Shown here piece after piece: positions 14,477 through 39,366 of a stretch of 64,000 bases of DNA (position 1 is the first letter of the stretch; every line of letters begins with the position of its first letter). A program made the position numbers and the translations under genes. The notes beneath the pieces are model-generated. The model was not told the origin of the DNA, made no database searches, and saw only the letters and a program-made list of their open reading frames with translations. Source of the DNA: a virus; IMG/VR virus record IMGVR_UViG_3300012944_000005. The stretch is one strand, 5' to 3'.

Positions 14477-14736
14477 TCGTAGGAGATTTATTCATCACGC
14501 CGCACGCCGTGCGGCAGTTTCGCGAGCGCATACCGGGAATGTGGCGGCTCAAATACGAGCAGGCGCTAGGGCTCATCCTTCGCGCGCTGCGAGAAAACAC
14601 GGCCAGCGTCAAGCCGACGCCAAACGGCTGTGGCGTCTCTATTCGCGTGCGGGGGGAGTTGAACTTTCGCGCGATTGCAGCGCGGGGCGAGGGCGTCAAG
14701 CCAGCGGTCGTAACGATTCTGCGGAGCGGAAAATGA
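14473..14736 (+). CDS. small operon protein (87 aa), unknown fold
   Basis: ATGA overlaps at both ends. Contains the motif ITPHAVRQFRER. No confident family. Confidence 0.45.
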   Translation: MIVGDLFITPHAVRQFRERIPGMWRLKYEQALGLILRALRENTASVKPTPNGCGVSIRVRGELNFRAIAARGEGVKPAVVTILRSGK

Positions 14737-15530
14737 AGGATTGGGCAGATTACGGCATCACCGGGAAAGTTCATTATGGCCAGCCGGTCAACGCCGAGCC
14801 GTACCGCCGCGTGATTCAGCGCCGAATGGCAAAGTCTCACGTTGCAATCGAGGAATTCCTTCACCTGGTCGGCAAGTCGGGCTACGTGGCCGTGAGTTTT
14901 GGCGTTGATTCCCTTGTGGCCTACGACCTGGCGCGGCGGATCTATCCGGAGATCTGTGCCGCGTGGGTCAACCAGGGGCCGCTCGCCGAGTGGCCTGACT
15001 GTCTCGCGCTGAAGAATCTGATGGTTGCCGGCGGAATACCTCTCACAGAGATCGCGCCCGACGTGACGCTCTACGACTGGTACAAGCAAAACGGGATCGA
15101 TTTCGGCGCTAACATGAACAACGCTGAGGATGAGCGACTAAATAAGGCGCTGATCTACGACCCTATCGAGCGATTCCACCAGGAAGAGAATCGCAAAGGC
15201 GTTATTTGGGGACTGCGCTGGCGAGGCGAGGGCGGGCATCGGGCTTTTGTGATCAAGGGCAATGGTGAGCTTTATCAGCGCAAGGCTGATGGTATCTGGG
15301 TCTGCTCGCCGGTCGGCAACTGGTCGAAGAGCGAGATATGGGCCTACCTGGATTTGCACGGTCTGCCCTACCCGGCTTTCTACGATCTAGACCGCGAGAA
15401 GATCCGCAACGGCCCACCTATTGGGGTCACGGGGCTGCATATGGGGCGTCTGGTGCGGTTTCGGATGCTGTTCCCGGAGATGTGGCGGGTGTTCTGTATG
15501 GAATTTGAGGAGATTCAACGATATGGCTGA
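14733..15530 (+). CDS. CysH-like PAPS reductase / PP-loop superfamily protein
   Basis: 265 aa from ATG 14733. PP-loop-like VAVSFGVDSLVAYDL, resembling the SFG-x-D/E-S motif of the PAPS reductase family. Confidence 0.6.
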   Translation: MKDWADYGITGKVHYGQPVNAEPYRRVIQRRMAKSHVAIEEFLHLVGKSGYVAVSFGVDSLVAYDLARRIYPEICAAWVNQGPLAEWPDCLALKNLMVAGGIPLTEIAPDVTLYDWYKQNGIDFGANMNNAEDERLNKALIYDPIERFHQEENRKGVIWGLRWRGEGGHRAFVIKGNGELYQRKADGIWVCSPVGNWSKSEIWAYLDLHGLPYPAFYDLDREKIRNGPPIGVTGLHMGRLVRFRMLFPEMWRVFCMEFEEIQRYG

Positions 15531-15768
15531 ACCTGTAAAACTGGACGATATCCTCATCTCCCTGGAGATATATGAGACATGGAACAAGCTGGCCTCGCAG
15601 GTCTCCACCTGTTTACCTGCCGGCGTCTCGCCGCAGGATATTGGCGACGAGGAAGCGGAAAAGAACGCTGATGGAAGTCTGACGATATTCTGTCGCGCGA
15701 AGGGCAAGCGGATCGCCCAATTGCGCATACCAGCCACTCACTGGCAATGGAGGTTTCCGGCAAATTGA
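15523..15768 (+). CDS. hypothetical operon protein (81 aa)
   Basis: MAEPVKLDDILISLEIYETW... Overlaps the upstream stop by 8 nt and the next start by 1 nt. Confidence 0.4.
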   Translation: MAEPVKLDDILISLEIYETWNKLASQVSTCLPAGVSPQDIGDEEAEKNADGSLTIFCRAKGKRIAQLRIPATHWQWRFPAN

Positions 15769-16664
15769 TGATGATCTATCTCGGACTCGATAATCAGGAG
15801 AAAGACAGGCGGATCGCTGATTACTGCGCGGCGCACGGTGTTGAGAAAGTCGTCATCCTATCGCCGGCGAAGTTTACGCTCTCCTGCTCGTTTGCCAACT
15901 CGGAAGTAGTCGAATGGGCTGAGATCATTGAATACAAATTCTTTTATAGGCTGATTCAGGAGATCAACAGCAAGACGCTGGTCGTAGTTAATGAATGCCT
16001 GCGGACGCAAAACCGCTACGATCTGACTTATAACTGCATTCGCCACTTCCTGAATCAGACCAGCCACCAGTTAATCTTCCAGCACTTGCCGATAATCGAT
16101 TCGATCGAGGACTTCATGATTCTCTTCGACTTTGACACGCGCAGCCGTTGGAAGCGCGAGAAGTTTAACGCAAAACCGCTGGGCGAGAGCCGGATCGAGG
16201 TCGCGCCCGTCGCGGTCGTCTTCAATACGATTCCGGTCGAGATCGACGCCAAACTGAAGGACGCCTATCGGAAGGAGAAAGAGCGACTACTCGCCCACAT
16301 CGGTCTGAAAGATCCGCACACGATCCCGCGTAATCTCTATCTGATGAGTGGCAAAGCAAAGCTGAAACACGTCGAGTCCGGAGGCGCCGGACTCTTCGCC
16401 GAGCGCCGTCATTATGTCGGCCGCAACAATCGCTTCAAGATCGAAACTCTTCAGACCTACAAGGAGCCGAGCTATCCAGATGCGCCTTATATGGTCTTCG
16501 AGTTTTGTCACAACTTCATCGACTTCGTGGACTTCATGGCGCTGTCGCGCCAGTCGTCCTTCGACGTCATGGTCGCCGACCTGAAGGTCGATCAATGGTA
16601 TCTGGCCCGATACCGCGAATGGGCTGAGAGGCTAAGGAATGCCACGGCAAGTTTACAGCGATAA
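15768..16664 (+). CDS. hypothetical operon protein (298 aa)
   Basis: Long ORF with ordinary globular composition. TGATG junction upstream (alternative ATG at 15747) and a 26-nt overlap downstream. No motif recognised. Confidence 0.5.
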   Translation: MMIYLGLDNQEKDRRIADYCAAHGVEKVVILSPAKFTLSCSFANSEVVEWAEIIEYKFFYRLIQEINSKTLVVVNECLRTQNRYDLTYNCIRHFLNQTSHQLIFQHLPIIDSIEDFMILFDFDTRSRWKREKFNAKPLGESRIEVAPVAVVFNTIPVEIDAKLKDAYRKEKERLLAHIGLKDPHTIPRNLYLMSGKAKLKHVESGGAGLFAERRHYVGRNNRFKIETLQTYKEPSYPDAPYMVFEFCHNFIDFVDFMALSRQSSFDVMVADLKVDQWYLARYREWAERLRNATASLQR

Positions 16665-17766
16665 AAAGAACGTCCTCGACGCTGCGCGCGGGCGCATGGT
16701 GTTTGTCTTTGATCATTTTGAGCAGATTATCGTTTCGGTGAGCGGCGGCAAGGATTCGACCGTCCTGGCGCACCTAGCGCTTGCCGAGGCGCGCCGGCGC
16801 CAGCGCAAGATCGGGCTGTTTTTTCTGGATGAGGAGGCGATGTATCAGAGTAGCGTGGATATGGTGGAATACCTGATGGGGATTTTCCCGGAAAACGTGA
16901 ATCGCCTCTGGCTACAAATTCCTTTCAACCTGACCAGCGCGACATCATTTCAGGAAAGTCAGATGCGATGCTGGGAACCGGGCAAGCATAAAGACTGGAT
17001 GCGCCAGAAGGGGCGCAACAATATCTGCGCGAAGCCTTGGCAGGAAAAGGAGGAGTCGTTCAGGAGCGGCTATAAATGGCTGGATTTCTACGGCGTGATT
17101 GAGAATTTCGAGCGATGTTATAAGGGCGCCGCTTTTCTGGTCGGCGAGCGCGCCACGGAAAGCCCGAACCGATGGCGCAGCGTGGCAAAGAATCCGGTAA
17201 TCATCGGGGGGACGAAGGTTTTCTGGGGGACACCTCGCGGCGACAATTTTATCTTTAAGCCGATCTACGACTGGAACTTCCATGATGTATGGCACTACAT
17301 TCATGACGAGAAACTGAGGTACTCGAAGATTTACGATTTTCAGTTAAAAAAAGGCTATCCGATCAATGAGATGCGGATAAGCTCCCTTATCCACGAACGA
17401 TCATTCAAAAGTTTGTGCGACCTACCTGAGTTCGAGCCGAAGACTTTTGAAAAACTCTGTCGGCGCATCAAGGGAATCGCATTTGTTCAGGAGACGGGAA
17501 AAAACGCGAAAGTCTTCAAGGCGCGGAAGCTGCCGAAGAACTTCAAATCGTGGATCACCTACCGCGATTTTTTGCTCGAAACATATCCCGACCCGGCGAA
17601 CAAGCCCATCTTCAAGAAGAGATTCGGCAAGCATCTGATCAATGAATACGTGGCGCGCCAGCATTGTCGTCAGCTTGTTTGCAATGATTACGAAAACAAC
17701 CTGCCGGTCGATAACCGCCCTGATCCGCGCGAGGAATTGATTCGCTATTATCAGGAGGTTTTATGA
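16639..17766 (+). CDS. IbrA/DndC-like PAPS-reductase-domain protein with C-terminal extension
   Basis: 375 aa. Canonical PP-loop SVSGGKDSTVLAHL plus a C-terminal extension of roughly 170 aa, as in IbrA-type (PAPS_reduct plus DUF3440) proteins. Confidence 0.6.
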   Translation: MPRQVYSDKKNVLDAARGRMVFVFDHFEQIIVSVSGGKDSTVLAHLALAEARRRQRKIGLFFLDEEAMYQSSVDMVEYLMGIFPENVNRLWLQIPFNLTSATSFQESQMRCWEPGKHKDWMRQKGRNNICAKPWQEKEESFRSGYKWLDFYGVIENFERCYKGAAFLVGERATESPNRWRSVAKNPVIIGGTKVFWGTPRGDNFIFKPIYDWNFHDVWHYIHDEKLRYSKIYDFQLKKGYPINEMRISSLIHERSFKSLCDLPEFEPKTFEKLCRRIKGIAFVQETGKNAKVFKARKLPKNFKSWITYRDFLLETYPDPANKPIFKKRFGKHLINEYVARQHCRQLVCNDYENNLPVDNRPDPREELIRYYQEVL

Positions 17767-19624: not shown

Positions 19625-21007
19625 TTAGCGGAAGAACGTGCCCTGCTCGAACTGGCCGCGTGGCACTCTCACCCAGTTTGCAATCGCGAGCGCATCACCT
19701 CGATCCGGCGAACGCCCGAGACGCCTCTTGATGTCGTCTTTCGATTCCAGCTTGATTCGTCCGCGCGAGTCGTAGGCGAACTTGACGTTGCTCAGGTCCG
19801 CCGCCATCTTCCGGTCATCAGGCAGGGCCAGATCGCCAGCCTTCAGCGCCTCCCGTAGCGCCCACCACATTTCAGCGCGCGCATTGACGAATTTCCCATC
19901 TTCTCGCGCCGCGCTTCCACCAATGCACGCTTTGACGCTGACACCTTGCTCTTTTAGTCGGTCCGTAACGCCGCCACCGAGTCCAGCGTCGTCAACGCCG
20001 AGCGACAGAGCACCGAGCGCCTTCAATTGCCCTGCCGTCTCCATTAGATTCTGACCGTGGCGCACGGATGGTCGGCTGACAATGCCGCCCTCGAAGATCG
20101 AGAAAATGACGGTTTCATCCTGGCCGTAGCGCGCGATATCGCAGCCCACGCAAGCCAGTTTCGCGCCCGGCTGGGGTTCAACCCATCGTTTCTGCGCGGC
20201 TTCGACCAGCGAAAGCGGGATCAGAACGTCATCGCCTTCTTCCGGCCAGAGCCCGCGCACGCGCGCGCGATATAAGCCGCTCTCCCGTCCTCCATATTCC
20301 TGCTCTCGCTCGGCGATCCATTCCCGCGTCACGGCGCCGGGGACAACGATGCGCCCTTCCCTGACGTTTGGATGGTCTTCGGCAGACAGCCGCAGGACGT
20401 TCCACAGTCCCGAATCTTCCTTGCGCTTCGCCTCACTCGTCGGGTCTGTCGGGTTGCCGATGGCCAGAAAGCGATCATCGTTGCCGACCGCGATGCCCTC
20501 GGATGCCTCCCAGATGCCGGAATCAACCCCAATTGCCTCGTCGAAGATGATCATAATTCGCGGCGCGTGGAAGCCTTGAAAGCGCGTCGGGTCGTCGGTC
20601 GAGAGACCGATCGCAAACCAATTATCTGCGAGGATAATTTGGGTTTTATGGACAGCGCCTCCCAGTGGAAATTTCGAGGCCAGGTACGCCCCGCGTAGCT
20701 CCCGCCAAAGCAGGCTTTCGACTTGTATCCAGGTCGGCGCCGTCGTGATTACTTTGCTGTTCGGATTCGAATAAAGAAACCAGAGAGCGAGACGAGCCGC
20801 GAGGTATGTTTTTCCGACGGAATTGCCCGCCGTTACGAGTGTGCGTCGATGATCCCGCACGCTCTCCAATACAGACATCTGCTGCGGGGTGAGATATTCA
20901 GCGCCGAGCACATTGCGGATAAACCACGCCGGGTCATTCCGGCTCCGCTCCAGCACTGTCTTGGCTTGGGTTCGATTCATCACTCGCCATTTGGGCCAGG
21001 ACTGCAA
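19625..21007 (-). CDS. terL: terminase large subunit
   Basis: Walker A LVTAGNSVGKTYLA, Walker B IMIIFDEA, and a C-terminal nuclease-type region. The start may be at MNRTQ (20980). Confidence 0.8.
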   Translation of the reverse strand: MQSWPKWRVMNRTQAKTVLERSRNDPAWFIRNVLGAEYLTPQQMSVLESVRDHRRTLVTAGNSVGKTYLAARLALWFLYSNPNSKVITTAPTWIQVESLLWRELRGAYLASKFPLGGAVHKTQIILADNWFAIGLSTDDPTRFQGFHAPRIMIIFDEAIGVDSGIWEASEGIAVGNDDRFLAIGNPTDPTSEAKRKEDSGLWNVLRLSAEDHPNVREGRIVVPGAVTREWIAEREQEYGGRESGLYRARVRGLWPEEGDDVLIPLSLVEAAQKRWVEPQPGAKLACVGCDIARYGQDETVIFSIFEGGIVSRPSVRHGQNLMETAGQLKALGALSLGVDDAGLGGGVTDRLKEQGVSVKACIGGSAAREDGKFVNARAEMWWALREALKAGDLALPDDRKMAADLSNVKFAYDSRGRIKLESKDDIKRRLGRSPDRGDALAIANWVRVPRGQFEQGTFFR

Positions 21008-28943: not shown

Positions 28944-29308
28944 TTGCCGTTGTTGTTTCGAACCTGCTGATCCAGGCTATCGAGCTTCTCGGCGATCTTG
29001 GTCTGGGTCTTCATCGACTCTTTATGCGTTTGGTCGACCATCACGCTTTGGGTTCTGAGCGCCGCCATAAACACCTTGCCCTGATCTTCGAACCGGCGCG
29101 CGTTGTCTTCGCGCTCCTGTCTCAACGCCTCCGTGAACAGCTTTCCCTGCTCTTCCCAGCGTTGAAGGTTTTCCTTTCGCTCGATGTCCGCGGCATCCAG
29201 TCGCTTTTCAATGGCCGGCCACATTTTCTTGTAAAGAAAGAGGCCGAGCGCCACCAGTACTAACACCGCGATCCCGTTTTTCGAGGCTATCTCGATCCAT
29301 TGCTCCAT
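28940..29308 (-). CDS. N-terminal TM plus coiled-coil protein
   Basis: IAVLVLVALGLFLY TM segment followed by a charged coiled coil. Confidence 0.4.
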   Translation of the reverse strand: MEQWIEIASKNGIAVLVLVALGLFLYKKMWPAIEKRLDAADIERKENLQRWEEQGKLFTEALRQEREDNARRFEDQGKVFMAALRTQSVMVDQTHKESMKTQTKIAEKLDSLDQQVRNNNGK

Positions 29309-29460
29309 TGGTCCTTTGATAGTTTTCTGGGTTTAACGACAGGTGGAAGGGTAAAGGAAAGGCATGCCTTATTTTGGAAAGCAAAAGAGTGCCCGCCACA
29401 GGCGCCCCTTTTGTCAGTCAACGATGGAGAATAATGGCTGGGCAGTGGAACAAGGAAATA

Positions 29461-29880
29461 CTATTCGGTTTTCGACTGATATTTTTCGCTTACAAAATAG
29501 AGCGGTCTGCGCGCACCACGGGCGGCTTCGGTCTTGCCTCCCTGGCGACGGACTTCGAGAATGTCCCGCTCGACCAGGTCGAAGAGCATCAGATCAAGAC
29601 GGCCAGCCGAAAGCAGCGTCTCTTCAGCGATATGCTCCGGATCGTTGGCGCCGTTCTGTACGACCTCGACAATGTCCACTTCATCCGGCGTCAGCGCCGC
29701 CATCAAGTCGCCGTATTTCGCCTCCTGCTCGCGAATCAGCTTCCGAATCATCGTTGAGAGCCACGCCGATTGCGAGCGAGCGCCGGTGAGAGCGACCGCG
29801 CGGCGGAATTTCGTTTGGATAGATTTCGGAAGACCTTTGAGCCTGATTGAATTACCTCTCGACATAGTTGTTACCATCAT
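29461..29880 (-). CDS. ribbon-helix-helix DNA-binding protein with C-terminal winged-helix-like domain
   Basis: Start at ATGATG 29880/29877 with GAGGAG upstream. SIRLKGLPKSIQTKFRRAVALTGARSQSAWLSTMIRKLIRE fits a beta-alpha-alpha RHH pattern. Confidence 0.5.
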   Translation of the reverse strand: MMVTTMSRGNSIRLKGLPKSIQTKFRRAVALTGARSQSAWLSTMIRKLIREQEAKYGDLMAALTPDEVDIVEVVQNGANDPEHIAEETLLSAGRLDLMLFDLVERDILEVRRQGGKTEAARGARRPLYFVSEKYQSKTE

Positions 29881-29894
29881 CTCTCCTCTTCCGT

Positions 29895-29918
29895 AAAAAG
29901 CGGGGCCAGTGTCCCCGC
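29895..29918 (-). terminator. rho-independent terminator downstream of the CRISPR array
   Basis: Minus strand reads GCGGGG-ACACTGG-CCCCGC followed by TTTTT (plus-strand A-run at 29895-29899). A second GC-rich hairpin sits at 29921-29940. Confidence 0.55.
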
Positions 29919-29972
29919 GTTGGGGCCGCATGCGGGGCCGCGTTTGTTAAAGTAGCTGACATCAATTCCCAT

Positions 29973-30162
29973 CTTTCTGATAATGTCGGCTCATCCATTG
30001 AACATCAATTGCTACGAGGATTCGCAGAAATGGAGAAGCGCAGGATCAGGTGCTTTCAATGGCTCATCCATTGAACATCAATTGCTACGTTTGAGATCCC
30101 GTATATTCCCCATTGTCGTCACACCCTTTCAATGGCTCATCCATTGAACATCAATTGCTACG
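29973..30162 (-). CRISPR. mini CRISPR array: 3 repeats (37 nt) and 2 spacers (36 nt)
   Basis: R3 (30126-30162) and R2 (30053-30089) are identical: CTTTCAATGGCTCATCCATTGAACATCAATTGCTACG. R1 (29973-30016) keeps 29 nt and is disrupted by 4-nt and 2-nt insertions. Spacers are at 30017-30052 and 30090-30125. Orientation is inferred from the cas gene, the degenerate distal repeat and the terminator. Confidence 0.85.
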
Positions 30163-30170
30163 GCACAAAC

Positions 30171-31817
30171 TCACGCTGCATTCATTGGACTTATAGGCTT
30201 AATAGCCTTCAAAAGCTGCGAGTGGTTAACCGATGCCGAAAACCCCGTCACCGCTCGCAAATAGTCCTGCACGATCCGCAGATAGTAGAGCGCCGCCGTC
30301 GCGTCTTGGTCCTCGACATGACGCTCAGCACACTCGCGGATCAGTTCGTGACCCGGCGCTATATGCTGCCCACACTCATCGCAGGTTTGCGTCGAATATG
30401 CCGCTGGATGACCCTGCAGATCACGCCCGCGTTTCTTCATCGCCTCCGCGATATAACCGCGTAGAGTATGCAAACTAGCCCATTGGCGGCGCTTCTGTGA
30501 TGCCTCACTGATGCGATCATCCACCGTCCGCTCTTGCCATTCGCCCGTCTCTTCGTGCTCTTCCTTCCGCGCCTTCTTGCGCTTTCCAGCCGCCTCCGCC
30601 ATCCGCTTCAGCCCCAAATCGCCTTCCCACGCGACGGTGTCATAGTTGTCGGCGATCCAGGCCGCGATGCAGCGATAGATGTAGTCGCGCGCGGCAATCC
30701 AATCAATCTGCGCGGCCCGGTATCGGCGTAGGTTCGTGTCGTGCCAAAAATGCCAATCCTCCAAAAACTCATATGAGATGCCAGCCTCAAAGAGTGTCCG
30801 CCGTATCCGTTGCAGCCCGCCCGCGCGCATTTTGACGACGCCCGCCATTGACGCGCGCGCCTCGTCGGGCCAAACCGAGCGATCCACACCTGCGAGATCG
30901 ATCTTGCAGGCTTCGAGATGGTCATCCATCTTGCGCTGGGCGTCTCGAATCAGCCGGATATCGCGCAGCATTGGGCGATCGACGACGCCCTGCGATTCGA
31001 GTCGCTTAATGAATTTGCGATCCTGATTGCGGCTCAAGTCGTAAGGCAATCGCAGTTCTCGGAAATCGCCGGCGCTATCCGCTAGCATGCCAATACGAAT
31101 GCAATCGCCCATATCGCGCCATCCGAGATCGAGGCCGGCGACGCGGCCAACGGACGGCGCTTTCGGATGCGGTGGAACCTGCAACGAGAAAACCAGCGAC
31201 CACTTCCATTCAAACGGCCGCTCGTGGAAGCCGGAGAGCGCGATGCCTTTGATCAGTGCGCCATCTGGAAGCGGGCGATCCATCACGATTTCAAATGGGA
31301 TTGTGATTTCATCGTACGGCGTGTGGATCACGAAATGCCCGCGCGTCGGGCCCTGAGCCTCCCGAACATAGGCGCGGTTTTCCGAGTTTGAATGAATCCA
31401 AGTGGTAGGCTCGCTAAAGCTGCCGAACTCCATCGGAAAGAGCATGCGCTCAAGACAGCGCTTTGGCTTCGGCGCGCCACCCTGTCTTTTTGCGAATCGC
31501 TGTTGTGACTTTCGGAATTGCTCATGAACCGTGTAGTAATATCGAAAATTCAGCGCGTCTTTGCTGGCCTTCGCGCGCTCGTACAAAATGCCCCCCTTGC
31601 CATTTTTCGTCAGTTTAGCAAACTGCTCTTTCCGCATCTCCTTGCTGGCGTCTTTGAATGCGCCGCAAAAAGCTTCGTGGCGCTCGGCAAGGTCACTATA
31701 GAGCGCATTCATCGCCTTGCCCGTATCCCAGATTTCTTGGGGTAAGTCGCCAATAATGCGGACGTCGTATTTGTATGCCAGTGTCGGCATGTCCGGGTTG
31801 TTCAGTTTTCTCGTCAT
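30171..31817 (-). CDS. cas12: compact Cas12/TnpB-like RuvC nuclease (type V effector candidate)
   Basis: RuvC-I RVAGLDLGW, RuvC-II DTVAWEGDLGLK, zinc ribbon STQTCDECG...IRECAERH, RuvC-III EDQDATAALYYL. 548 aa from ATG 31817 (alternatives GTG 31880 and ATG 31790). The stop is 8 nt from repeat R3. Confidence 0.8.
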   Translation of the reverse strand: MTRKLNNPDMPTLAYKYDVRIIGDLPQEIWDTGKAMNALYSDLAERHEAFCGAFKDASKEMRKEQFAKLTKNGKGGILYERAKASKDALNFRYYYTVHEQFRKSQQRFAKRQGGAPKPKRCLERMLFPMEFGSFSEPTTWIHSNSENRAYVREAQGPTRGHFVIHTPYDEITIPFEIVMDRPLPDGALIKGIALSGFHERPFEWKWSLVFSLQVPPHPKAPSVGRVAGLDLGWRDMGDCIRIGMLADSAGDFRELRLPYDLSRNQDRKFIKRLESQGVVDRPMLRDIRLIRDAQRKMDDHLEACKIDLAGVDRSVWPDEARASMAGVVKMRAGGLQRIRRTLFEAGISYEFLEDWHFWHDTNLRRYRAAQIDWIAARDYIYRCIAAWIADNYDTVAWEGDLGLKRMAEAAGKRKKARKEEHEETGEWQERTVDDRISEASQKRRQWASLHTLRGYIAEAMKKRGRDLQGHPAAYSTQTCDECGQHIAPGHELIRECAERHVEDQDATAALYYLRIVQDYLRAVTGFSASVNHSQLLKAIKPISPMNAA

Positions 31818-31870
31818 ATGCCCTCCATCTCCCCAACCTTCTCCAGCGAGCGCCCGAAGACGCCGCCATC

Positions 31871-32173
31871 CTATATCCACTGTTTCACGATCCAGCAGAA
31901 GAACAGCGTCAACGCCGGAAGGATAAACCCTCTCACGAATAGCTTGATCATTTTCTGGTTAAACGTCTTATCCTCGTCGTCGCTCTTCGTGTCCTGCCAT
32001 GTCACTAGCCGAATAACAGAGGAAAAACCGATCGCAACTGGCACGCTCAGCCGCGCAATGCCAAATGTCGGCGAGACAAACCATCCCCACACGATACTAA
32101 GAACGTAGCCGTACCAAGTGGACAGCGCCGCCCATGTCGCTATAAAGCCAACAAACATAAACAATGCTTTCAT
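31871..32173 (-). CDS. small multi-pass membrane protein
   Basis: Start at MKALFMFVGFIATWAAL (ATG 32173). Three hydrophobic segments. Immediately upstream of the cas12-like gene. Confidence 0.45.
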   Translation of the reverse strand: MKALFMFVGFIATWAALSTWYGYVLSIVWGWFVSPTFGIARLSVPVAIGFSSVIRLVTWQDTKSDDEDKTFNQKMIKLFVRGFILPALTLFFCWIVKQWI

Positions 32174-32279
32174 ACGTCTTCTCTCCTTTTTGTCGTTTCC
32201 GCTGTCTCCCCCAACCCCGCCGCCGGCTCCCACATCGGGCAGCGGATCGGTTTGAATTCGAGTTCTTGCTGTGAGTTGG

Positions 32280-33485
32280 TCATTTCCCGTTCAGATCCTG
32301 ATAACGATTGATCATGTCGCCTAACACTTGCGCGCATTGCGGGACGACCGCGTTGCCACACGCTTTGAGGGCGGCGACACGCCATCGAGCCAATCCGATG
32401 GAAATCCCATCAATTGCAAAACCCAGCGCGGATTTAAACGCGCTGCGGACTTTACCGACCACACCAGCAAGACCTCCCCGATGTCCTGTATCCGCATCAA
32501 GTATCGAAACTGAGAAAGCAGTGCGCCGGTCAAAGAGGACTCTCGGCTCTTCCCATTCGTGCTGTGGCTCTCCTGGTCGGGCTGGCCATCGCGCAACATC
32601 AGCGCAAGAGTGGGACGATCCGTCGCGCCAGGCGATGCGCTGCGATTGGTTCGCCCTGTGCCTGAATCTATCGCTGTCGGCGTCGGCCAACTGTTCACTG
32701 CCGCCGTCCTGAGCCCATCGCCGCTCTTCGCTGTGGCTCCCTTGCGGTTCGTGTTGCCGTCCACTGTTGGCGTCGGCCACATATTCGCGAATGATTCGAG
32801 GTTGGGCGATTTGCGCTGGCGTTCGGATGGGCAATCCTGATTGATCTGCGCTTTCGGCGTCGGCCATCGCCTCACCGCATAATTCAAATCCACCTGCCGC
32901 TTCTTGCCGTCGGGCGTCTGGCCGGTTGGCGTCATAGATCCGCCCTTCTCTCCGTCCGATGCTCGTGCTGTAGGCCACGAACCACACTCGTTCTCTTCCG
33001 TGCGGCGCGCCAACGTCCTCAGCAGCCAACTCGACGGGCAGGATCTCGTAACCTCTAGCCGCAAACTCACGCGCAAGCCATTCGCTGAATTGAAGTCCCT
33101 CAACGTCGAGGCTAAGCACGCCGCGAGGGTTCTCCGCCAGCAGCCACAGGAGCGGCCGTTCTTGCGCGTCGTTGATTTCAGACACCAGGCGCAAATACTC
33201 AGGCCAGAGCCAGCGATCGTCGGCGGAGCCTCGTCGCTGGCCAGCGACGCTGGCGGGTTGGCAGGGCGGTCCTCCGACAAGCGCGTTAATTCGTCCGCAG
33301 TGATCGGAAATAAGTTTCCCTGTGAGAGTTTTGACATTCGTGTGTCTCCAAATCTTCGGCCAGTGTTTTTCAAGGACAACGTTACAGAACGGCTCAAGCT
33401 CGCACTGCCCGACGCATGTCCAGTTGGCTCTTTCGAGTCCCAAATCGAATCCGCCGATACCTGTGAAGATGCTAAAGAAGTTCAA
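32280..33485 (-). CDS. dcm: DNA (cytosine-5)-methyltransferase, apparently frame-interrupted
   Basis: Frame A has motif I FTGIGGFDLG, motif IV GGPPCQPAS, motif VI ENPRGVL, motif VIII HGRERVWFVA and motif X CGNAVVPQ. The overlapping +1 frame (32321..33397) has the TRD-type WPTP repeats and LMGFPSDW. Confidence 0.6.
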   Translation of the reverse strand: MNFFSIFTGIGGFDLGLERANWTCVGQCELEPFCNVVLEKHWPKIWRHTNVKTLTGKLISDHCGRINALVGGPPCQPASVAGQRRGSADDRWLWPEYLRLVSEINDAQERPLLWLLAENPRGVLSLDVEGLQFSEWLAREFAARGYEILPVELAAEDVGAPHGRERVWFVAYSTSIGRREGRIYDANRPDARRQEAAGGFELCGEAMADAESADQSGLPIRTPAQIAQPRIIREYVADANSGRQHEPQGSHSEERRWAQDGGSEQLADADSDRFRHRANQSQRIAWRDGSSHSCADVARWPARPGEPQHEWEEPRVLFDRRTAFSVSILDADTGHRGGLAGVVGKVRSAFKSALGFAIDGISIGLARWRVAALKACGNAVVPQCAQVLGDMINRYQDLNGK

Positions 33486-33859: not shown

Positions 33860-35117
33860 GGATGTGTATGGATGTTTTGCTGGATTCCTGCTCCAGGTAA
33901 TATCCGCAGCTCACGCAATAGATAAAGCCTTCTCCCTGTTTCACTTGCCCGTCGCAGCGCTTAGCGTGCCCGCCGGTCAATAAATCGGCTTGCCGATAGG
34001 AATAAAGCCGCCAAATGGCTAATGGCGCGTTCAGGACTTCAAGGGTCTCCCACATGGGCTGACGAAAATAGTCGCGGCCCCGAAGCCCGCCGTCTGGCGT
34101 GAGATGCGCATGCCCGCCAGTTTTTAAAAAGGCCATTAATGCCGCATGCGCCCGTTCCGCTTCTTCTTTTGCTAGGCGCCGGACCTCCCGAGATGCCCGC
34201 TCAGCCTCGATCCGCTCGGCTTCCTCCTTGGCCCTACGCTCAGCCTCAATGCGCGCCTTCTCTTGCTGTTCGCGCTTCCATTCGTCGTAAACCTGAAGTC
34301 GCTGTTGCTCGACTTCCTCTTGCCGCCGCTGTTGCTCCTGGCGCAATTCTTCCCTGCGCTTCTCTTCCTGCTCGCGCTGCAATTGGAGCTCATGCTCGCG
34401 TTTAAGTCGCTCCTGCTGAATCCTTAATTGCTCCTGGCGTCGGCGGAATTCGGCCCTCCTCATCTCCTCGGCGCAGGCTTCACAAACGGAAGGCGGCCGA
34501 GGGTAGCTAATCCCGGCGCCGATGGCATCAATGGAAAGAATATGAGCAGCCTCAACATGCCCGAAGTATTCACCTGCCAGCACATGGCTGGCCGAAATCT
34601 CGAACCAGTTCAGGCCCTGGGCCTTAAATTCGCCCTGTTTCTGGTCATCAACGGCATGGGTATGGTAAATCTCTGCCGCGCCGAGAACGGCATTTGACTG
34701 ATCCAGGCAAGCAATATCGGGGCGGCGCCTACCAATGGTCCATTCCGGCTCTGCGTGATCATAGTTTTCAATTCTTAGATATGAATACCAGTGGGTACAT
34801 TTACCGCATCGATAGACAAGAGAAGCGGAATGAAAGCCGTTTAGTTTCTGAGTAAGAAACGCCTTCGCGTTCAGATGTACAGCCGACTCGCCTCCCGCCG
34901 CGCTACGGCAAGCGGAGCCCGGCAAATGCCTGAAGTGATCCTCGATATCCCTCTTAGGAAGCACGAGCACGATCTCTTCATTGCATTCTGCGCAGATAAA
35001 GCCATCAGGTCTGCCCTTAGTCGACCCGCGATATTGATCATATTCGCGAATGTTGACCAATCGGCCATCGAATAACGCGAAGCGGACAAGCATCCCCGCT
35101 AGATGAATATCTACCAT
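33840..35117 (-). CDS. CoiA-like nuclease-domain protein with E/R/Q-rich coiled coil
   Basis: ESAVHLNAK...RRRPDIACLD...AAEIYHTH pattern as in the CoiA-like family. Residues ~225-330 are EQ/ER-rich repeats. C-terminal Cys-containing domain. Confidence 0.5.
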   Translation of the reverse strand: MVDIHLAGMLVRFALFDGRLVNIREYDQYRGSTKGRPDGFICAECNEEIVLVLPKRDIEDHFRHLPGSACRSAAGGESAVHLNAKAFLTQKLNGFHSASLVYRCGKCTHWYSYLRIENYDHAEPEWTIGRRRPDIACLDQSNAVLGAAEIYHTHAVDDQKQGEFKAQGLNWFEISASHVLAGEYFGHVEAAHILSIDAIGAGISYPRPPSVCEACAEEMRRAEFRRRQEQLRIQQERLKREHELQLQREQEEKRREELRQEQQRRQEEVEQQRLQVYDEWKREQQEKARIEAERRAKEEAERIEAERASREVRRLAKEEAERAHAALMAFLKTGGHAHLTPDGGLRGRDYFRQPMWETLEVLNAPLAIWRLYSYRQADLLTGGHAKRCDGQVKQGEGFIYCVSCGYYLEQESSKTSIHIHESAVL

Positions 35118-36595
35118 CCTGCCTCCTCGGCATACTGCTTCCAGTCTCCCGGCCGCTCCTTCTTTTCGCCCGATTTAGCCTTGCGGCTGCGATTTCCATC
35201 CCCATTGACACGTTCCCGCGACCGTTCTGGTTTTCCCGCTGGATGAGCCTCAACCGCCGCGCTTTCAAACCGCGATTGCTCTCCAAAGAAGACCAGGTTG
35301 ATCGCTACATCCTTCCTGCCGCCACGATGCTTTGCGATCACAAGCCGCCTGCCTGGGTTCTCTTGATCTTCCCAGTCCTGGGGCATCAGGAACATAACAA
35401 CATCGCTATCCTGCTCAATGGAACCCGACCCCCTAAGATCTGAAAGCTGATAATCTTTATTGGCGCGTTTCGAAAATTCGCGATTCAATTGGCTTAGAAC
35501 GATCACCGGAATGTTATGCATAATCGCGATGCGCTTCAGCGTCCGGCTTATCTCGGCCAGCCGCAAATGCTCGTTCTCGCGCTTATCGTCGGAATCAAGT
35601 AATTGCAGATAATCCACAATCAGAAAATCGAGCCGCTTATATTTCCTGCGGACCTTCGCGACACGCGCCGCTAGGCTATTGGCCGTCACTCTCGAAAATC
35701 CTTCAACATATTCGATAGAGAGCCGCTTGATCTCCTCGGCTTTCTCTCGGACGAATTCCTTTTCCTGGTCGGTCAAATCGCCAGTCTCGATCCTATAGGC
35801 GTTAAGTTGCGTGAAGGTTGAAAGAGTCTTGATCATCAACTCGTCGGTCGACATTTCCAGCGAGATAATCAATCCGACTCGGGGGCCATCAGGCCCAGCC
35901 TCAGATACGATTCGCTGTCCGAAATTAAGCGCGAGGGTTGTTTTGCCGATGCCTGTCCCCGCCGCGAGGGTATAATATTTCCCGCCGCGGAAGCCGAGCA
36001 GCACTTTGTCCAGATCGGGAAAGCCGGATGGGAGGCCGATCATGCCGCTACCGGCCTCCCATCGCTGCTCCAGTTCGAGCATGGCGCGGCTGGTAGCGGC
36101 CTCGCTGGAAATCAAGTCGTCAATGATCTGATCTTCCGTCAGTTCATCGACTTTGACGCGCAATAGTGGAAGCAGATCGGCTACGCGAGCGTCATTCGCT
36201 GTTGACTCACCGAATAGCCAATTGGCGAGATAGGCTGATTTCCGCAGAATAGCCGCATCCTTGATCAGCCTCACATATGGCGATATGTCGCTAAAGCGCG
36301 GCACGCCGTCGAAGAGTCCGGTTATTGCGACAGGACCGCCGACTCGCTCAAGATTGCCGGCCTTTTCGAGTTCGGACTGAAGGGTCAGCGGATTGATTAC
36401 CCGATTACCGTTCAGATCGCCCCGGTCGATGGCTCGCATTGCCAGGAATATCAGCCGATGCGATTCGACCGAATAATCCTCCATCGCCGTCTGATAGAGC
36501 ACCTGCGGCGCGAGCCCATTATCGAGCATCACGCATCCGAGCGCCATTCTCTCGGCCTCCGGCTCTGAGGGCAGCTTGTCAACTTGGTATATCAA
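35111..36595 (-). CDS. dnaB: replicative DNA helicase DnaB
   Basis: Walker A LAAGTGIGKTTLAL, plus VIVLSQLNREF and LRGSGSIEQDSDVV motifs. N-terminal AERMALGCVML. TTG start overlaps the upstream stop. Confidence 0.85.
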   Translation of the reverse strand: MIYQVDKLPSEPEAERMALGCVMLDNGLAPQVLYQTAMEDYSVESHRLIFLAMRAIDRGDLNGNRVINPLTLQSELEKAGNLERVGGPVAITGLFDGVPRFSDISPYVRLIKDAAILRKSAYLANWLFGESTANDARVADLLPLLRVKVDELTEDQIIDDLISSEAATSRAMLELEQRWEAGSGMIGLPSGFPDLDKVLLGFRGGKYYTLAAGTGIGKTTLALNFGQRIVSEAGPDGPRVGLIISLEMSTDELMIKTLSTFTQLNAYRIETGDLTDQEKEFVREKAEEIKRLSIEYVEGFSRVTANSLAARVAKVRRKYKRLDFLIVDYLQLLDSDDKRENEHLRLAEISRTLKRIAIMHNIPVIVLSQLNREFSKRANKDYQLSDLRGSGSIEQDSDVVMFLMPQDWEDQENPGRRLVIAKHRGGRKDVAINLVFFGEQSRFESAAVEAHPAGKPERSRERVNGDGNRSRKAKSGEKKERPGDWKQYAEEAGW

Positions 36596-37464
36596 CGGAC
36601 ACCTCTCACGCAGTCACATCGCCTAGCCCGAGTCTCCCCTTGAGCGGAATTAGGCCGCAGCCATCCGCCGACACAATTCCCGCAATATTGGCGCTTTGTA
36701 GCGGCGCCGTTCCCGTTAGAGTGCGTCTCGGTATAGTCGTTTAGCGTATTAAGTAGATTAAAGTGACTCATTTGCGAGCGGGGCCATCCGTGCCGATACC
36801 AGGCCCGCCAGCCATCCAGGGTCTCAGCGGTCCACTTCCTGGCCCGCAGTGCGCCAAAAACTTTTTCGAGTTGCGGGCGATTAGCGGCCAGCGCGGGAAA
36901 TAAGTCCTGCAATTTCTCGCCTAACTGCTGAATGGGTGTCATTCCGCCGCCCTGTACAGATTCCACCCCACCAAAACTGCCCGCGCGCGTCTGCGCGTTA
37001 TTCGTCTCCGAATACGTCTCCGTCTCCGTGCGCAATTGACCGGCGCTTGACTGCCTGTTGACGGTCAATGGACGGTCATCTATCTGACTGTCAATCGGCG
37101 GGCTCTCGCCTGCCTGCGATGTGGCGGGAATCGTCGTCCCATCCATTGGCCCCGGAAATTTGCTTTCACTCTGACGCGTCCTCTGTCGAAAGTTCTGGAT
37201 TTCCAGAAACTGCCGGCCCCTGGCATCCACGTAACAGCGAATCAAACCGGACTTCTCGCACGCAGCGGTCCATCGGGAAATGTCGGTGTCGCGTATCTCT
37301 GGCAGGAGTGGGAACAGGTTGGCTTTCAACAGGCGAGGGTCAGCATGAAAGCGTCCGAAGTCGTCAACTTTCATAATCAGCCGAACGAAGAATCTCTCTG
37401 CGAGCGCATCGAGTTCGTTTATTGAATAAGAATCAGTCCAGTCTCTGAGGATTCGATTCGGCAT
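36592..37464 (-). CDS. replication initiation / replisome-organizer-like protein
   Basis: N-terminus MPNRILRDWTDSYSINELDALAERFFVRLIMKVDDFGRF. Coupled to dnaB. C-terminal CGNC...CDC cysteines. Confidence 0.4.
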   Translation of the reverse strand: MPNRILRDWTDSYSINELDALAERFFVRLIMKVDDFGRFHADPRLLKANLFPLLPEIRDTDISRWTAACEKSGLIRCYVDARGRQFLEIQNFRQRTRQSESKFPGPMDGTTIPATSQAGESPPIDSQIDDRPLTVNRQSSAGQLRTETETYSETNNAQTRAGSFGGVESVQGGGMTPIQQLGEKLQDLFPALAANRPQLEKVFGALRARKWTAETLDGWRAWYRHGWPRSQMSHFNLLNTLNDYTETHSNGNGAATKRQYCGNCVGGWLRPNSAQGETRARRCDCVRGVR

Positions 37465-38832: not shown

Positions 38833-39366
38833 TCAGACCTCCTGCCTTGCCAACCATCGCAGCACTTCCCTTGCCGCCTTCGCGTCGCCGAGTGCCCTAT
38901 GTCCGCCCGGCTCGACGCCGATGTTGTGGCAAACGGTTTCGAGCCGCTGCCAGCGGTCAAAGCCGTGGAATTCCATCCAGGCGTTCATCAAACAGTGCCA
39001 TTCGTGGTTGCGGGCCTCGGGGCCAAATGTCTGCTCGATCATCCGGGAATCGAATGGCGCGTTATAGGCGAGCAGGGCCGAGCCGCAAATGATCTGATGA
39101 ACGAGCGGCCATAATTCATCGGCCGCTATCGCCTGATCGGCCATCTCGGTTGTAATGCCGTGAATGTTCGTCGCGGCTGGCGGGATCGGCTTCGAAAGCT
39201 TGACCAATGATGCAAACTCCAACGTGTAGGCCGCGTCAACAATCGCAATCTCAACGATCTGGTCATCTTCGCCGAGACCAGTCGTTTCCGTATCGATGAT
39301 CAAGGCTTTGCTCGCGATAAATCGCTGCGCCCATTCTACGATTCGTTTCTTGCGGTCATCGGACAT
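38833..39366 (-). CDS. DnaQ-like 3'-5' exonuclease (DEDDh)
   Basis: ExoI LIIDTETTGL, ExoII LLAYNAPFDSRMI, ExoIII HRALGDAKAA. Confidence 0.75.
   Translation of the reverse strand: MSDDRKKRIVEWAQRFIASKALIIDTETTGLGEDDQIVEIAIVDAAYTLEFASLVKLSKPIPPAATNIHGITTEMADQAIAADELWPLVHQIICGSALLAYNAPFDSRMIEQTFGPEARNHEWHCLMNAWMEFHGFDRWQRLETVCHNIGVEPGGHRALGDAKAAREVLRWLARQEV

What the first reader, a model, noticed from the sequence alone, without database searches (positions are those of the whole stretch)
30171..31817. Compact (about 548 aa) Cas12/TnpB-like effector with an intact RuvC triad in a temperate phage
The ORF has RuvC-I (GLDLGW), RuvC-II (AWEGDLGLK), a CxxC-containing zinc ribbon (STQTCDECG...REC..H) and RuvC-III (DQDATAAL) in TnpB/Cas12 order. 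It sits directly beside a CRISPR array. Its size places it with the miniature type V effectors (Cas12f/m/n and the V-U groups), not Cas12a-e. I cannot assign a subtype from sequence alone. No obvious tracrRNA locus is visible. A phage-encoded stand-alone effector with only two spacers probably targets competing mobile elements, and it may represent an undescribed compact lineage.
Basis: partly seen in the sequence, partly recalled or inferred. Interest (0 to 1): 0.85.

Follow-up and report, generated by a model that had tools for sequence, protein, structure and literature searches.

The report
Phage-encoded compact Cas12m-type CRISPR effector
A temperate phage carries a small (548 aa) RNA-guided Cas12m-family protein with its own two-spacer CRISPR array; this is a new, unusually trimmed member of a known family that most likely blocks rival DNA by binding it, not by cutting it.

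Summary
Window 31817->30171 (- strand) encodes a 548-aa TnpB/Cas12-type protein with RuvC D230/E398/D503 and a CCCH zinc ribbon. A 3-repeat, 2-spacer CRISPR array on the same strand starts 8 nt after its stop codon and ends at an intrinsic terminator.

The subtype can be assigned: it is Cas12m (type V-M, formerly V-U1). The evidence is profile searches in both directions, the predicted fold, and repeats homologous to MsCas12m and TfCas12m crRNAs. Its nearest NCBI relatives are already listed as Cas12m clade 4 in Bigelyte et al. 2024.

It differs from every characterised Cas12m in one respect. The coiled-coil REC2 insertion is cut to 43 aa, against 84-115 aa.

Relatives in other metagenomes carry homologous arrays of up to 23 repeats. 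An 8-bp 3' hairpin in the repeats covaries. These relatives sit beside phage integrases, and the gene is under purifying selection.

All tested Cas12m proteins, including those with a D-E-D triad, bind DNA but do not cut it. Binding-based interference against competing mobile elements is therefore the likeliest mechanism. No protospacer was found.

The same phage also encodes an array-less type IV-B-like Cas module.

Verdict: a real locus and a new member of a known kind, of moderate interest.

The parts
30171..31817 (-). cas12m-like gene, 548 aa (stop codon 30171-30173)
   Evidence: ORF. PADLOC Cas12u1 E 2e-23. Family profile against PDB Cas12m entries E 5e-50 to 1e-14. AF2 model pLDDT 83.6; Foldseek top hits are Cas12m2 and GoCas12m. 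dN/dS is 0.12-0.22 against four homologues.
31822..31826 (-). Shine-Dalgarno GGAGG, 4 nt upstream of the ATG at 31817
   Evidence: Read from the sequence. Supports the 548-aa start, as do the homologue N-termini.
31539..31667 (-). aa 51-93: remnant of the REC2 insertion (two short helices, 59-70 and 77-87)
   Evidence: 43 residues here, against 84-115 in the eight characterised Cas12m proteins, Rctr197k and P0015. Secondary structure from the AF2 model.
31128..31130 (-). RuvC-I aspartate D230 (GLDLGW)
30624..30626 (-). RuvC-II glutamate E398 (AWEGD)
30318..30383 (-). TNB zinc ribbon C479-x2-C482 ... C496-x3-H500 (CCCH)
   Evidence: Invariant in alignment A1. Pfam Cas12f1-like_TNB covers aa 451-510 at 24.7 bits, just under the 26.3-bit cut-off.
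30309..30311 (-). RuvC-III aspartate D503 (DQD)
   Evidence: Invariant. Aligned with the published third catalytic residue of characterised Cas12m proteins.
30126..30162 (-). CRISPR repeat 1 (CGTAGCAATTGATGTTCAATGGATGAGCCATTGAAAG); starts 8 nt after the stop codon
   Evidence: The 3' hairpin TTCAATGG/CCATTGAA folds at -8.7 kcal/mol (z -2.4). It covaries in homologous arrays.
30090..30125 (-). spacer 1 (GGTGTGACGACAATGGGGAATATACGGGATCTCAAA)
   Evidence: No target found.
30053..30089 (-). CRISPR repeat 2 (identical to repeat 1)
30017..30052 (-). spacer 2 (CACCTGATCCTGCGCTTCTCCATTTCTGCGAATCCT)
   Evidence: No target found.
29980..30016 (-). terminal degenerate repeat: 5' 29 nt intact, 3' arm of the hairpin lost
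   Evidence: 81% identity. Its fold is no better than shuffled sequence.
29893..29918 (-). intrinsic terminator GCGGGGACACTGGCCCCGC + TTTTT, closing the cas12m-array transcription unit

Best explanation
This is a minimal type V-M (Cas12m-family) CRISPR-Cas locus carried by a temperate phage.

Transcription (inferred). The gene and the array are transcribed together from the - strand. The array begins 8 nt after the stop codon, and a terminator follows the last repeat.

crRNA (inferred by homology). The protein itself trims the transcript into two crRNAs. Each has a roughly 30-33-nt repeat-derived 5' handle ending in an 8-bp hairpin, followed by the spacer. No tracrRNA is involved.

Action (inferred from characterised relatives). 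The ribonucleoprotein recognises PAM-flanked double-stranded DNA of a competing phage, plasmid or prophage. It stays bound and blocks transcription or replication instead of cutting, as every Cas12m tested so far does, including those with a D-E-D triad.

Spacer acquisition (inferred). The locus has no adaptation genes, so new spacers must come from a host Cas1-Cas2 acting in trans or from recombination.

Shown here: gene, fold, family, array, hairpin covariation, phage context and purifying selection.

Not shown here: co-transcription, crRNA processing, PAM, binding versus cutting, and target identity.
For: Family.
- PADLOC Cas12u1 E 2e-23.
- The family profile hits four PDB Cas12m sequences over nearly full length: 23vw (which is TfCas12m) 5e-50, UnCas12m4a 1e-32, Cas12m2 1e-16 and GoCas12m 1e-14. 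The next best hit is at 1e-9 and covers the C-terminus only.
- A profile built from the eight biochemically characterised Cas12m proteins hits this protein at E 1.9e-25.
- Foldseek top hits are Cas12m2 (TM 0.67/0.62) and GoCas12m.
- The protein aligns from residue 1 with NCBI proteins that Bigelyte et al. list as Cas12m clade c4, at 27-30% identity and E down to 4e-41.

RNA.
- The repeat is 36-37 nt with a GUAGCAAU 5' end and a 3' hairpin plus short tail. This is the layout of the Ms (GUAGCAAC...CUGAGAC) and Tf (GUUGCAAU...CUGAGAC) crRNAs.
- The hairpin is 100% paired in 8 repeats from 4 loci, with 4 of 8 pairs showing compensatory changes; 0 of 500 shuffles reach the observed covariation score.
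- There is no anti-repeat.

Conserved locus design.
- L004 has 23 repeats starting 2 nt after the stop codon.
- The contigs L002, L003, L005 and L009 end 32-39 nt after the stop codon. In three of them (L003, L005, L009) the contig tail is recognisably a first repeat.
- L010, L013 and L014-16 also have arrays.
- GenBank phage Rctr197k has a 622-aa Cas12m followed by an annotated CRISPR.

Function retained.
- dN/dS is 0.12-0.22 against four homologues.
- A terminator follows the array.

Mechanistic prior.
- D-E-D, H-D-D and N-D-D Cas12m proteins all bind dsDNA in a PAM-dependent way and none cleaves.
- They still protect against plasmids and phage.
- crRNA processing is independent of RuvC and no tracrRNA is used (PMC11013384; PMC10442227; bioRxiv 10.64898/2026.03.26.714355).

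Phage context. Head, portal and terminase; integrases; integrases next to the homologues in L004, L005 and L010.
Against: - No protospacer was found, so neither the PAM nor the kind of target is known.
- The D-E-D triad is nearly invariant across this clade: 148, 139 and 153 of 160 sequences. That conservation is hard to explain if RuvC does nothing, so some nuclease activity cannot be excluded.
- The protein lacks most of the coiled-coil REC2. In Cas12m2, REC2 holds the PAM-distal heteroduplex and forms the Arg-rich pocket said to give tight binding (PMC10442227). The tight-binding mechanism may therefore not transfer unchanged.
- Identity to characterised Cas12m proteins is only 17-26%. A rough NJ tree puts all of them in a clade that excludes this protein.
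- With only two spacers, the array may be little used.
Confidence: 0.6

Rival explanations
1. Same locus and same crRNA biogenesis, but the effector is an active RNA-guided DNase. The conserved D230/E398/D503 site nicks or cleaves target DNA, as in Cas12f or TnpB. The phage would then destroy competing DNA instead of silencing it.
For: The triad and the zinc ribbon are almost invariant across about 160 relatives. The gene is under purifying selection. [quoted passage not shown] This REC2-short branch has never been tested. The REC architecture is closer to that of TnpB and Cas12f, which cut.
Against: Four D-E-D Cas12m proteins (Ms, Ap, Un, Tf) showed no dsDNA cleavage (PMC11013384). The best-matching solved structure, 23vw, is one of them (TfCas12m). 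Converting the Cas12m2 H-D-D triad to D-E-D did not restore cleavage.
Confidence: 0.28
2. The system is a phage gene-regulation device, not a weapon. The two crRNAs direct binding to host or phage promoters (natural CRISPRi), for example to control lysogeny or host functions.
For: Cas12m proteins are transcriptional silencers. The array is tiny and fixed in size. Altae-Tran et al. describe repeated recruitment of TnpB/Cas12 scaffolds for regulation.
Against: There is no match of either spacer inside the 64-kb window beyond 11-12 nt chance hits. The 69%-identical relative in L004 carries 22 different spacers with typical immune-array turnover, including two variants of one spacer. The host genome is unknown, so host targeting could not be tested.
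Confidence: 0.08
3. It is a transposon-type TnpB (IS200/IS605/IS607 cargo) that landed in the phage, and the repeats are incidental.
For: The only Pfam hit is the shared TNB domain. NCBIfam gives a weak 'guided_TnpB' hit at 25 bits against a cut-off of 100. BFVD structural hits are viral TnpB/Fanzor proteins at TM <= 0.49.
Against: No TnpA-like gene is adjacent; the ten neighbouring ORFs have no such domain. The 3' flank is a CRISPR array, not an omega-RNA/RE end, and homologous arrays with covarying hairpins follow the gene in unrelated contigs. Matches to Cas12m are far stronger and full length.
Confidence: 0.02
4. It is a decaying remnant. The locus is no longer functional: two spacers, a degenerate last repeat and no adaptation genes.
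For: The array is small. The relatives in L010 and L013 have eroded arrays with irregular spacing.
Against: The ORF is intact, with dN/dS of 0.12-0.22. Two repeats are perfect copies, and a degenerate terminal repeat is normal in arrays. The Shine-Dalgarno sequence and terminator are intact. The catalytic and zinc-binding residues are intact.
Confidence: 0.04

Closest known systems
Cas12m (type V-M, formerly V-U1), D-E-D members such as TfCas12m (PDB 23vw) and MsCas12m
   Same: Single small effector with WED-REC-RuvC-TNB order. D-E-D triad and zinc ribbon. A 36-nt repeat with a GUAGCAA-type 5' end and a 3' stem-loop. No tracrRNA and no adaptation genes. These proteins give the best profile and fold matches.
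   Different: Identity is only 17-26%. The coiled-coil REC2 is 43 aa instead of 84-115 aa, so the Arg-rich pocket region is missing. The repeat hairpin has an 8-bp stem and a 5-nt loop, instead of a 6-bp stem with a 9-12-nt loop. The locus is encoded by a phage.
NCBI proteins MBI4468381.1, MBI4468182.1, MBF6570780.1 and MBI2508861.1, listed as Cas12m clade c4 in Bigelyte et al. 2024, Table S1
   Same: Same short-REC architecture and motifs (GLDLGWR..YLRIGML..ELRLPL). They align from residue 1 at 27-30% identity, E 1e-32 to 4e-41. They fall among the representative relatives found here (P0144 is MBI2508861.1).
   Different: In that table none of the four has the CRISPR flag set, and none was tested. 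Here the clade is shown to be array-associated, in several cases next to phage integrases.
Phage-borne Cas12m: MvCas12m of myxophage MV-1 (bioRxiv 10.64898/2026.09.14.751636), UnCas12m from an IMG/VR contig (PMC11013384), and the unannotated Cas12m of Virus Rctr197k (KX853510.1)
   Same: Virus-encoded Cas12m plus an adjacent array, without cas1/2/4 or a tracrRNA, with a D-E-D triad. No spacer targets were found for MV-1 either.
   Different: Those proteins are 583-622 aa. For UnCas12m and Rctr197k the long REC2 was measured here, and Rctr197k falls in the canonical Cas12m clade. MvCas12m was compared by length only. This protein is 548 aa and belongs to the REC2-short branch.
Cas12f (type V-F) and TnpB
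   Same: Similar size class, RuvC/TNB core, and a minimal REC lobe without a long REC2.
   Different: Cas12f needs a tracrRNA and works as a dimer. TnpB uses an omega-RNA inside an IS element. Here there is a tracr-less CRISPR array. Sequence matches to these groups are weak and confined to the TNB region (E >= 4.5e-6).
CasPhi (Cas12j) and CasLambda (Cas12l), compact type V effectors of phages
   Same: Phage-encoded, single effector, tracr-less, adaptation-less loci.
   Different: They are unrelated at family level: PDB profile E 0.61 for CasPhi3, and Foldseek TM <= 0.35 for CasLambda. They are 700-800 aa and are active nucleases (own knowledge).

Membership tests
Cas12m / type V-M | Sequence-profile similarity to bona fide Cas12m that exceeds similarity to other Cas12 subtypes and TnpB | tested here: met
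   PADLOC Cas12u1 2e-23. Family profile against PDB Cas12m entries 5e-50 to 1e-14, with the next family at 1e-9. Reciprocal profile of the 8 characterised Cas12m proteins, E 1.9e-25.
Cas12m / type V-M | Bilobed WED/REC plus RuvC/TNB fold closest to solved Cas12m structures | tested here: met
   AF2 pLDDT 83.6, pTM 0.72. Foldseek ranks 1-4 are Cas12m2 (8hhl, 8hhm, 8hio) and GoCas12m (8pm4), TM 0.60-0.67. Cas12f and TnpB give <= 0.47.
Cas12m / type V-M | RuvC triad in one of the family's known configurations (clade 3/4: D-E-D) and a TNB zinc finger | tested here: met
   D230/E398/D503 fall in the same alignment columns as the published triads of Go, Mm, Ms, Ap, Un and Tf. CCCH zinc ligands are invariant.
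Cas12m / type V-M | [quoted passage not shown] 2023) | tested here: not met
   43 residues between REC1 helix 1 and the LYW-type motif, against 84-115 in 8 characterised Cas12m proteins, Rctr197k and P0015. The alignment shows a clean deletion of about 65 aa. The same deletion occurs in NCBI proteins that the literature nevertheless lists as Cas12m clade c4.
Cas12m / type V-M | Adjacent CRISPR array with a ~36-nt repeat carrying a 3' stem-loop; single crRNA; no tracrRNA | tested here: met
   Array. Repeat layout and ends resemble the Ms and Tf crRNAs. Hairpin covariation. No anti-repeat in the window. RNA processing itself was not tested.
Cas12m / type V-M | No adaptation module (cas1/cas2/cas4) in the locus | tested here: met
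   The ten flanking ORFs have no Cas domains. The called genes within +/-10 kb have none either. A PADLOC scan of 70 window ORFs showed no Cas1/2/4 among the 25 strongest of 51 families, but the list was truncated, so absence across the whole window is not proven.
Cas12m / type V-M | PAM-dependent dsDNA binding without cleavage; interference by blocking transcription or replication | not testable with these tools
   Needs PAM-SCANR or PAM-depletion and in vitro cleavage assays. No protospacer was found from which to infer a PAM.
Cas12m / type V-M | Phylogenetic placement inside the family | tested here: inconclusive
   A rough NJ tree puts the 8 characterised proteins in an 11-member clade that excludes the window protein, which sits in a clade of at least 122 members. 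That larger clade contains proteins published as Cas12m clade c4. No outgroups were included, and sampling is biased towards the query.
TnpB (IS200/IS605/IS607 OMEGA element) | Association with TnpA or IS ends, and an omega-RNA at the 3' end instead of a CRISPR array | tested here: not met
   Neighbours are phage genes, with no Y1 or serine recombinase. The 3' flank is a CRISPR array conserved in homologous loci.
Cas12f / type V-F | tracrRNA with an anti-repeat; closest profile and fold matches to Cas12f | tested here: not met
   No anti-repeat. PDB Cas12f matches cover only the TNB region (E >= 4.5e-6). One PADLOC model labelled Cas12f (PDLC01692) scores 4.6e-20 over the same coordinates as the Cas12u1 model, so that label is ambiguous.

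The most novel reading that the evidence does not exclude
The REC2-short Cas12m branch, which is large in metagenomes and never tested, may work differently from canonical Cas12m. There are two possibilities. (a) It may be a genuinely active hypercompact nuclease that uses its strictly conserved D-E-D site, possibly as a dimer that compensates for the missing REC2, as Cas12f does. (b) In this phage, its array may also supply guides to the array-less type IV-B Csf complex encoded 12 kb away. That would give type IV-B, whose natural RNA is unknown, a crRNA source.
Probability: 0.15. Interest if true: 0.75.

Novelty: new member of a known kind. Interest (0 to 1): 0.45.

Why it matters
Cas12m proteins are used as compact, naturally nuclease-free DNA binders for base and epigenome editing. 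A 548-aa natural variant that lacks about 65 aa of REC2 would show how far the scaffold can be trimmed, if it still binds targets. It would also test the published idea that REC2 was needed for TnpB to become a CRISPR effector.

In biological terms, the locus adds a clear case of a temperate phage carrying a V-M system. It has several metagenomic relatives next to integrases, some with arrays of up to 23 repeats. This supports the view that such systems serve conflicts between mobile elements.

The presence of an array-less type IV-B module in the same phage offers a concrete place to ask what RNA type IV-B complexes use.

Tried and rejected
Protospacer searches (all negative)
- Exact 36-mers and 22-mers of both spacers in IMG/VR.
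- 24-mers of both spacers in JGI metagenomes, written so as to exclude the array itself.
- BLAST of the window array and of the 23-repeat L004 array against GenBank phages. Only chance-level hits at E >= 2 were returned.
- BLAST of the L004 array against PLSDB plasmids. One hit at E 0.5.
- All spacers against the window and every fetched locus. There is no self-targeting or cross-targeting.

Searches for relatives
- Protein-pattern scans of IMG/VR and of GTDB representative genomes found nothing. The broad alignment A1 was too divergent for that tool.
- A degenerate repeat pattern found nothing in IMG/VR.
- The same pattern found one chance hit in genomes (L007, no array).
- The host therefore remains unknown. 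The capsid protein is about 50% identical to capsid proteins of Caulobacter, Rhizobium, Acinetobacter and enterobacterial phages, which suggests only a proteobacterial host.

Other negatives
- Rfam: no hit in 29000-32500.
- A literature search for 'Cas12m4' found nothing.
- A sigma-70-like site on the + strand at 29956-29984 points into the array, but such sites are no more frequent here than in shuffles, and the orientation contradicts every homologous locus. It was rejected.
- The 17-nt inverted repeat flanking the locus (29673-29689 / 32108-32124, 82% complementary) lies inside neighbouring ORFs and was judged to be chance.
Full report
**1. What is in the sequence**

The - strand ORF 31817->30171 encodes 548 aa. 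The ATG at 31817 is preceded by GGAGG at 31826-31822. It gives the N-terminus M-T-R-K-L-N-N-P-D-M-P, which all close homologues share. The longer GTG start at 31880 is therefore unlikely.

Eight nucleotides after the stop codon, on the same strand, lie three 37-nt repeats with an exact 73-nt period and two 36-nt spacers. The repeat does not occur elsewhere in the window, and none is expected by chance. The last repeat keeps its 5' 29 nt but has lost the 3' arm of the hairpin. That is usual for a terminal repeat.

A strong intrinsic terminator (GCGGGG-ACACTGG-CCCCGC-TTTTT, 29918->29893) follows. Gene, array and terminator therefore look like one transcription unit. This is inferred.

**2. The element is a temperate phage**

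- PHROGs identify a major head protein (6998-8155), portal (9044-10510), large terminase (19625-21007) and DnaB-type helicase (35111-36595).
- There is also a replication initiator (36592-37464) and an integrase (48406-49563, phrog_1, 6.7e-37).
- Pfam adds a second tyrosine recombinase (54784-55680) and a GH19 lysin-like protein.
- The source contig is 66,183 nt.
- GC content of the cas region (0.555) equals that of the rest of the phage.

**3. Which family**

Pfam sees only the TNB zinc ribbon, just below its threshold. PADLOC's Cas12u1 model (V-U1, now V-M) gives 2e-23.

A profile of the 15 homologues found in 5.8 billion proteins was searched against PDB sequences:

| PDB entry | Protein | E-value | Coverage |
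|---|---|---|---|
| 23vw | Cas12m | 5e-50 | near full length |
| 23vu | UnCas12m4a | 1e-32 | near full length |
| 8hio | Cas12m2 | 1e-16 | near full length |
| 8pm4 | GoCas12m | 1e-14 | near full length |
| next best | Fanzor2, Cas12p, Cas12f, TnpB | 1e-9 or weaker | C-terminal RuvC/TNB part only |

The sequence of 23vw is TfCas12m of Bigelyte et al. 2024.

The AF2 model (pLDDT 83.6, pTM 0.72) finds Cas12m2 and GoCas12m as its four best PDB matches (TM 0.60-0.67). Cas12f and TnpB come next at TM <= 0.47.

In the reverse direction, an HMM built from the eight biochemically characterised Cas12m proteins (sequences from the paper's supplement) hits the window protein at E 1.9e-25.

The protein also aligns from residue 1 with four NCBI proteins (MBI4468381.1 and others). 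Identity is 27-30%, with E down to 4e-41. Bigelyte et al. list these four in their 134-member Cas12m family table as clade c4.

The protein is Cas12m (type V-M), on the clade-4 side of the family.

**4. How it differs from characterised Cas12m**

- **Identity.** Identity to the eight tested proteins is 17-26%. In a rough NJ tree those eight, the phage Rctr197k protein and two metagenomic proteins form a clade that excludes the window protein. The window protein sits in a group of at least 122 representatives. This tree has no outgroup and its sampling is biased towards the query, so it is only indicative.
- **REC2.** The structural difference is clear. Between the first REC1 helix and the LYW-type motif, characterised Cas12m proteins have 84-115 residues. 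This stretch is the coiled-coil REC2. The window protein has 43 residues there, its close clade has 36-55, and 113 of 151 of its best metagenomic relatives have 20-60. The AF2 model shows only two short helices in this region (59-70 and 77-87).
- **Why REC2 matters.** Omura et al. describe REC2 as 'characteristic' of Cas12m2. They report that it grips the PAM-distal part of a 17-bp heteroduplex and forms an Arg-rich pocket important for tight binding. They argue that the REC2 insertion was key to the TnpB-to-Cas12 transition. This branch lacks most of it.
- **Size of the wider family.** 1,323 50%-identity clusters match the family profile at E < 1e-30. The close clade of the window protein has only 16 detectable members, none from NCBI or UniProt.

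**5. The guide RNA**

On the gene strand the repeat reads CGUAGCAAUUGAUG-UUCAAUGG-AUGAG-CCAUUGAA-AG. The 8-bp hairpin is the minimum-free-energy structure.

Homologous repeats follow the gene in other loci:
- **L004:** 23 repeats, starting 2 nt after the stop codon, with hairpin UUCAACGG/CCGUUGAA.
- **L010 and L013:** arrays are present.
- **L003, L005 and L009:** partial first repeats lie at the contig ends. The assemblies break inside the first repeat.

Over eight repeats from four loci, all 64 cells of the helix are paired. Four of the eight pairs show double (compensatory) changes, and slid registers drop to 33-55% paired.

The 5' end (GUAGCAAU) and the general layout match the crRNAs used for MsCas12m (GUAGCAACGCC...GCUCAG...CUGAGAC) and TfCas12m (GUUGCAAUGCC...). 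The loop here is 5 nt, against 9-12 nt in those RNAs and in Rctr197k.

No anti-repeat exists and Rfam finds nothing. Cas12m proteins are reported to need no tracrRNA and to process their own pre-crRNA independently of RuvC.

**6. Is it functional and CRISPR-linked in general?**

dN/dS between the window gene and four homologues is 0.12-0.22. dS is near saturation, so these values are approximate.

Integrases lie next to the homologues in L004, L005 and L010.

A more distant relative, P0020 (32% identity on the trimmed alignment), has arrays with a 29-nt repeat and a 61-nt period.

GenBank phage 'Virus Rctr197k' (KX853510.1) carries a 622-aa canonical Cas12m annotated only as 'similar to transposase', followed by an annotated CRISPR of about 21 repeats.

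Phage-borne Cas12m is therefore real but barely recognised. A September 2026 preprint calls its 610-aa MvCas12m the first in a phage. However, UnCas12m of Bigelyte et al. already came from an IMG/VR contig.

**7. Mechanism**

By homology, the most likely action is PAM-dependent, crRNA-guided binding of double-stranded DNA that blocks transcription or replication of the target. Bigelyte et al. tested four D-E-D, two H-D-D and two N-D-D Cas12m proteins and saw binding but no cleavage. They still observed protection against plasmids and phage. Omura et al. could not restore cleavage by rebuilding D-E-D in Cas12m2.

Two observations keep an active-nuclease rival alive at about 0.28. First, the triad is strongly conserved in this clade. 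Second, the clade lacks the REC2/Arg pocket that is thought to underlie tight binding.

Targets are unknown, because every protospacer search failed. 'Targets competing mobile elements' is therefore an inference from phage carriage and from the 22 diverse spacers of L004.

**8. Side finding**

A PADLOC scan of 70 window ORFs, followed by per-ORF scans, gave:
- Csf1/Cas8-like: 11647-12321, E 9e-7.
- Csf2/Cas7: 12318-13751, E 2e-30. The match covers aa 231-465 and leaves a 230-aa N-terminal extension.
- Csf3/Cas5: 13646-14476, E 3.5e-27.
- A CysH/PAPS-reductase-like protein: 16639-17766 (phrog_2302, 1e-79; DndC-like).

Core csf genes plus a cysH-like gene and no array is the published signature of type IV-B. 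The Cas12m array is the only array in the window. The effector is thus not the phage's only Cas module. No link between the two systems was tested.

**9. Verdict**

It is a new member of a known kind and is of moderate interest.

Noticed in passing
window 11647-17766 (+ strand), between portal and terminase genes: A type IV-B-like Cas module. It comprises Csf1-like (11647-12321), Csf2/Cas7 with a 230-aa N-terminal extension (12318-13751), Csf3/Cas5 (13646-14476), two unassigned ORFs (14469-15530 and 15747-16664), and a CysH/PAPS-reductase-like gene (16639-17766). It has no array of its own. The only array in the window is the one beside cas12m.
   Followed up: partly
L010 1652-2170 and L013 2956-3413: Relatives P0014 and P0009 are followed by eroded arrays. 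The repeats differ from one another (with compensatory hairpin changes) and the spacers range from about 5 to 37 nt. In L010 the first repeat overlaps the stop codon of the gene. These do not look like products of regular adaptation.
   Followed up: partly
L014 6552-6770, L015 1699-2097, L016 1698-1962: The relative P0020 (518 aa) carries arrays with a 29-nt repeat and a 61-nt period (32-nt spacers). These are the dimensions of type I-E arrays, which hints that spacers may be acquired by a host I-E Cas1-Cas2 in trans.
   Followed up: no
L004 7167-7202 and 8330-8356: Spacers 6 and 22 of the 23-repeat array are variants of one sequence (AATGGTGTTACCGACAATCAGCCGCGC... and AACAGCGTTACCGACAATCAGCCGCGC). 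The array therefore holds two spacers against variants of the same target, or an assembly or duplication artefact is present.
   Followed up: no
L008 (GenBank KX853510.1, Virus Rctr197k, record 110803-114219): A 622-aa canonical D-E-D Cas12m is annotated only as 'similar to transposase'. It sits next to an annotated CRISPR of about 21 repeats (CTCACAAGAGAAGCTCAGATCTTTGGGTTCTGAGAC) in a 197-kb phage deposited years before Cas12m was named.
   Followed up: partly
L002, L003, L005, L009 (contig ends): Four homologue-bearing contigs stop 32-39 nt after the stop codon. In L003, L005 and L009 the contig tail is recognisably a first CRISPR repeat; in L002 the tail is different and was not shown to be a repeat. 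Arrays of this family probably break short-read assemblies, so array association is under-counted in databases.
   Followed up: partly
window 32280-33485 (-): The C5 cytosine methylase ORF matches Pfam DNA_methylase only over its first 185 aa (profile positions 1-174 of 324). A 358-aa ORF in another frame overlaps it (32321-33397). Three 23-nt direct repeats spaced about 90 nt apart lie inside it (32674-32873). It may have an inserted or repetitive target-recognition region, or a frameshift.
   Followed up: no
window 29461-29877 (-), immediately downstream of the terminator: This 138-aa ORF has no Pfam or PHROGs hit. By eye its N-terminus looks ribbon-helix-helix-like. It could be a small regulator next to the CRISPR locus.
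   Followed up: no
window 38833-39366 (-): A DEDDh/RNase T-type exonuclease (Pfam RNase_T in the contig's gene calls) is the likely source of the PADLOC 'Cas-associated DEDDh' hit (1e-31) in the 70-ORF scan, but the hit was not assigned to a specific ORF. It lies in the replication module and is probably an ordinary phage exonuclease.
   Followed up: no
window 29956-29984 (+): A sigma-70-like site (CTGACA-17-GATAAT) points into the array from the far side, antisense to cas12m. Such sites are no more frequent here than in shuffled sequence, so it is probably not meaningful.
   Followed up: partly
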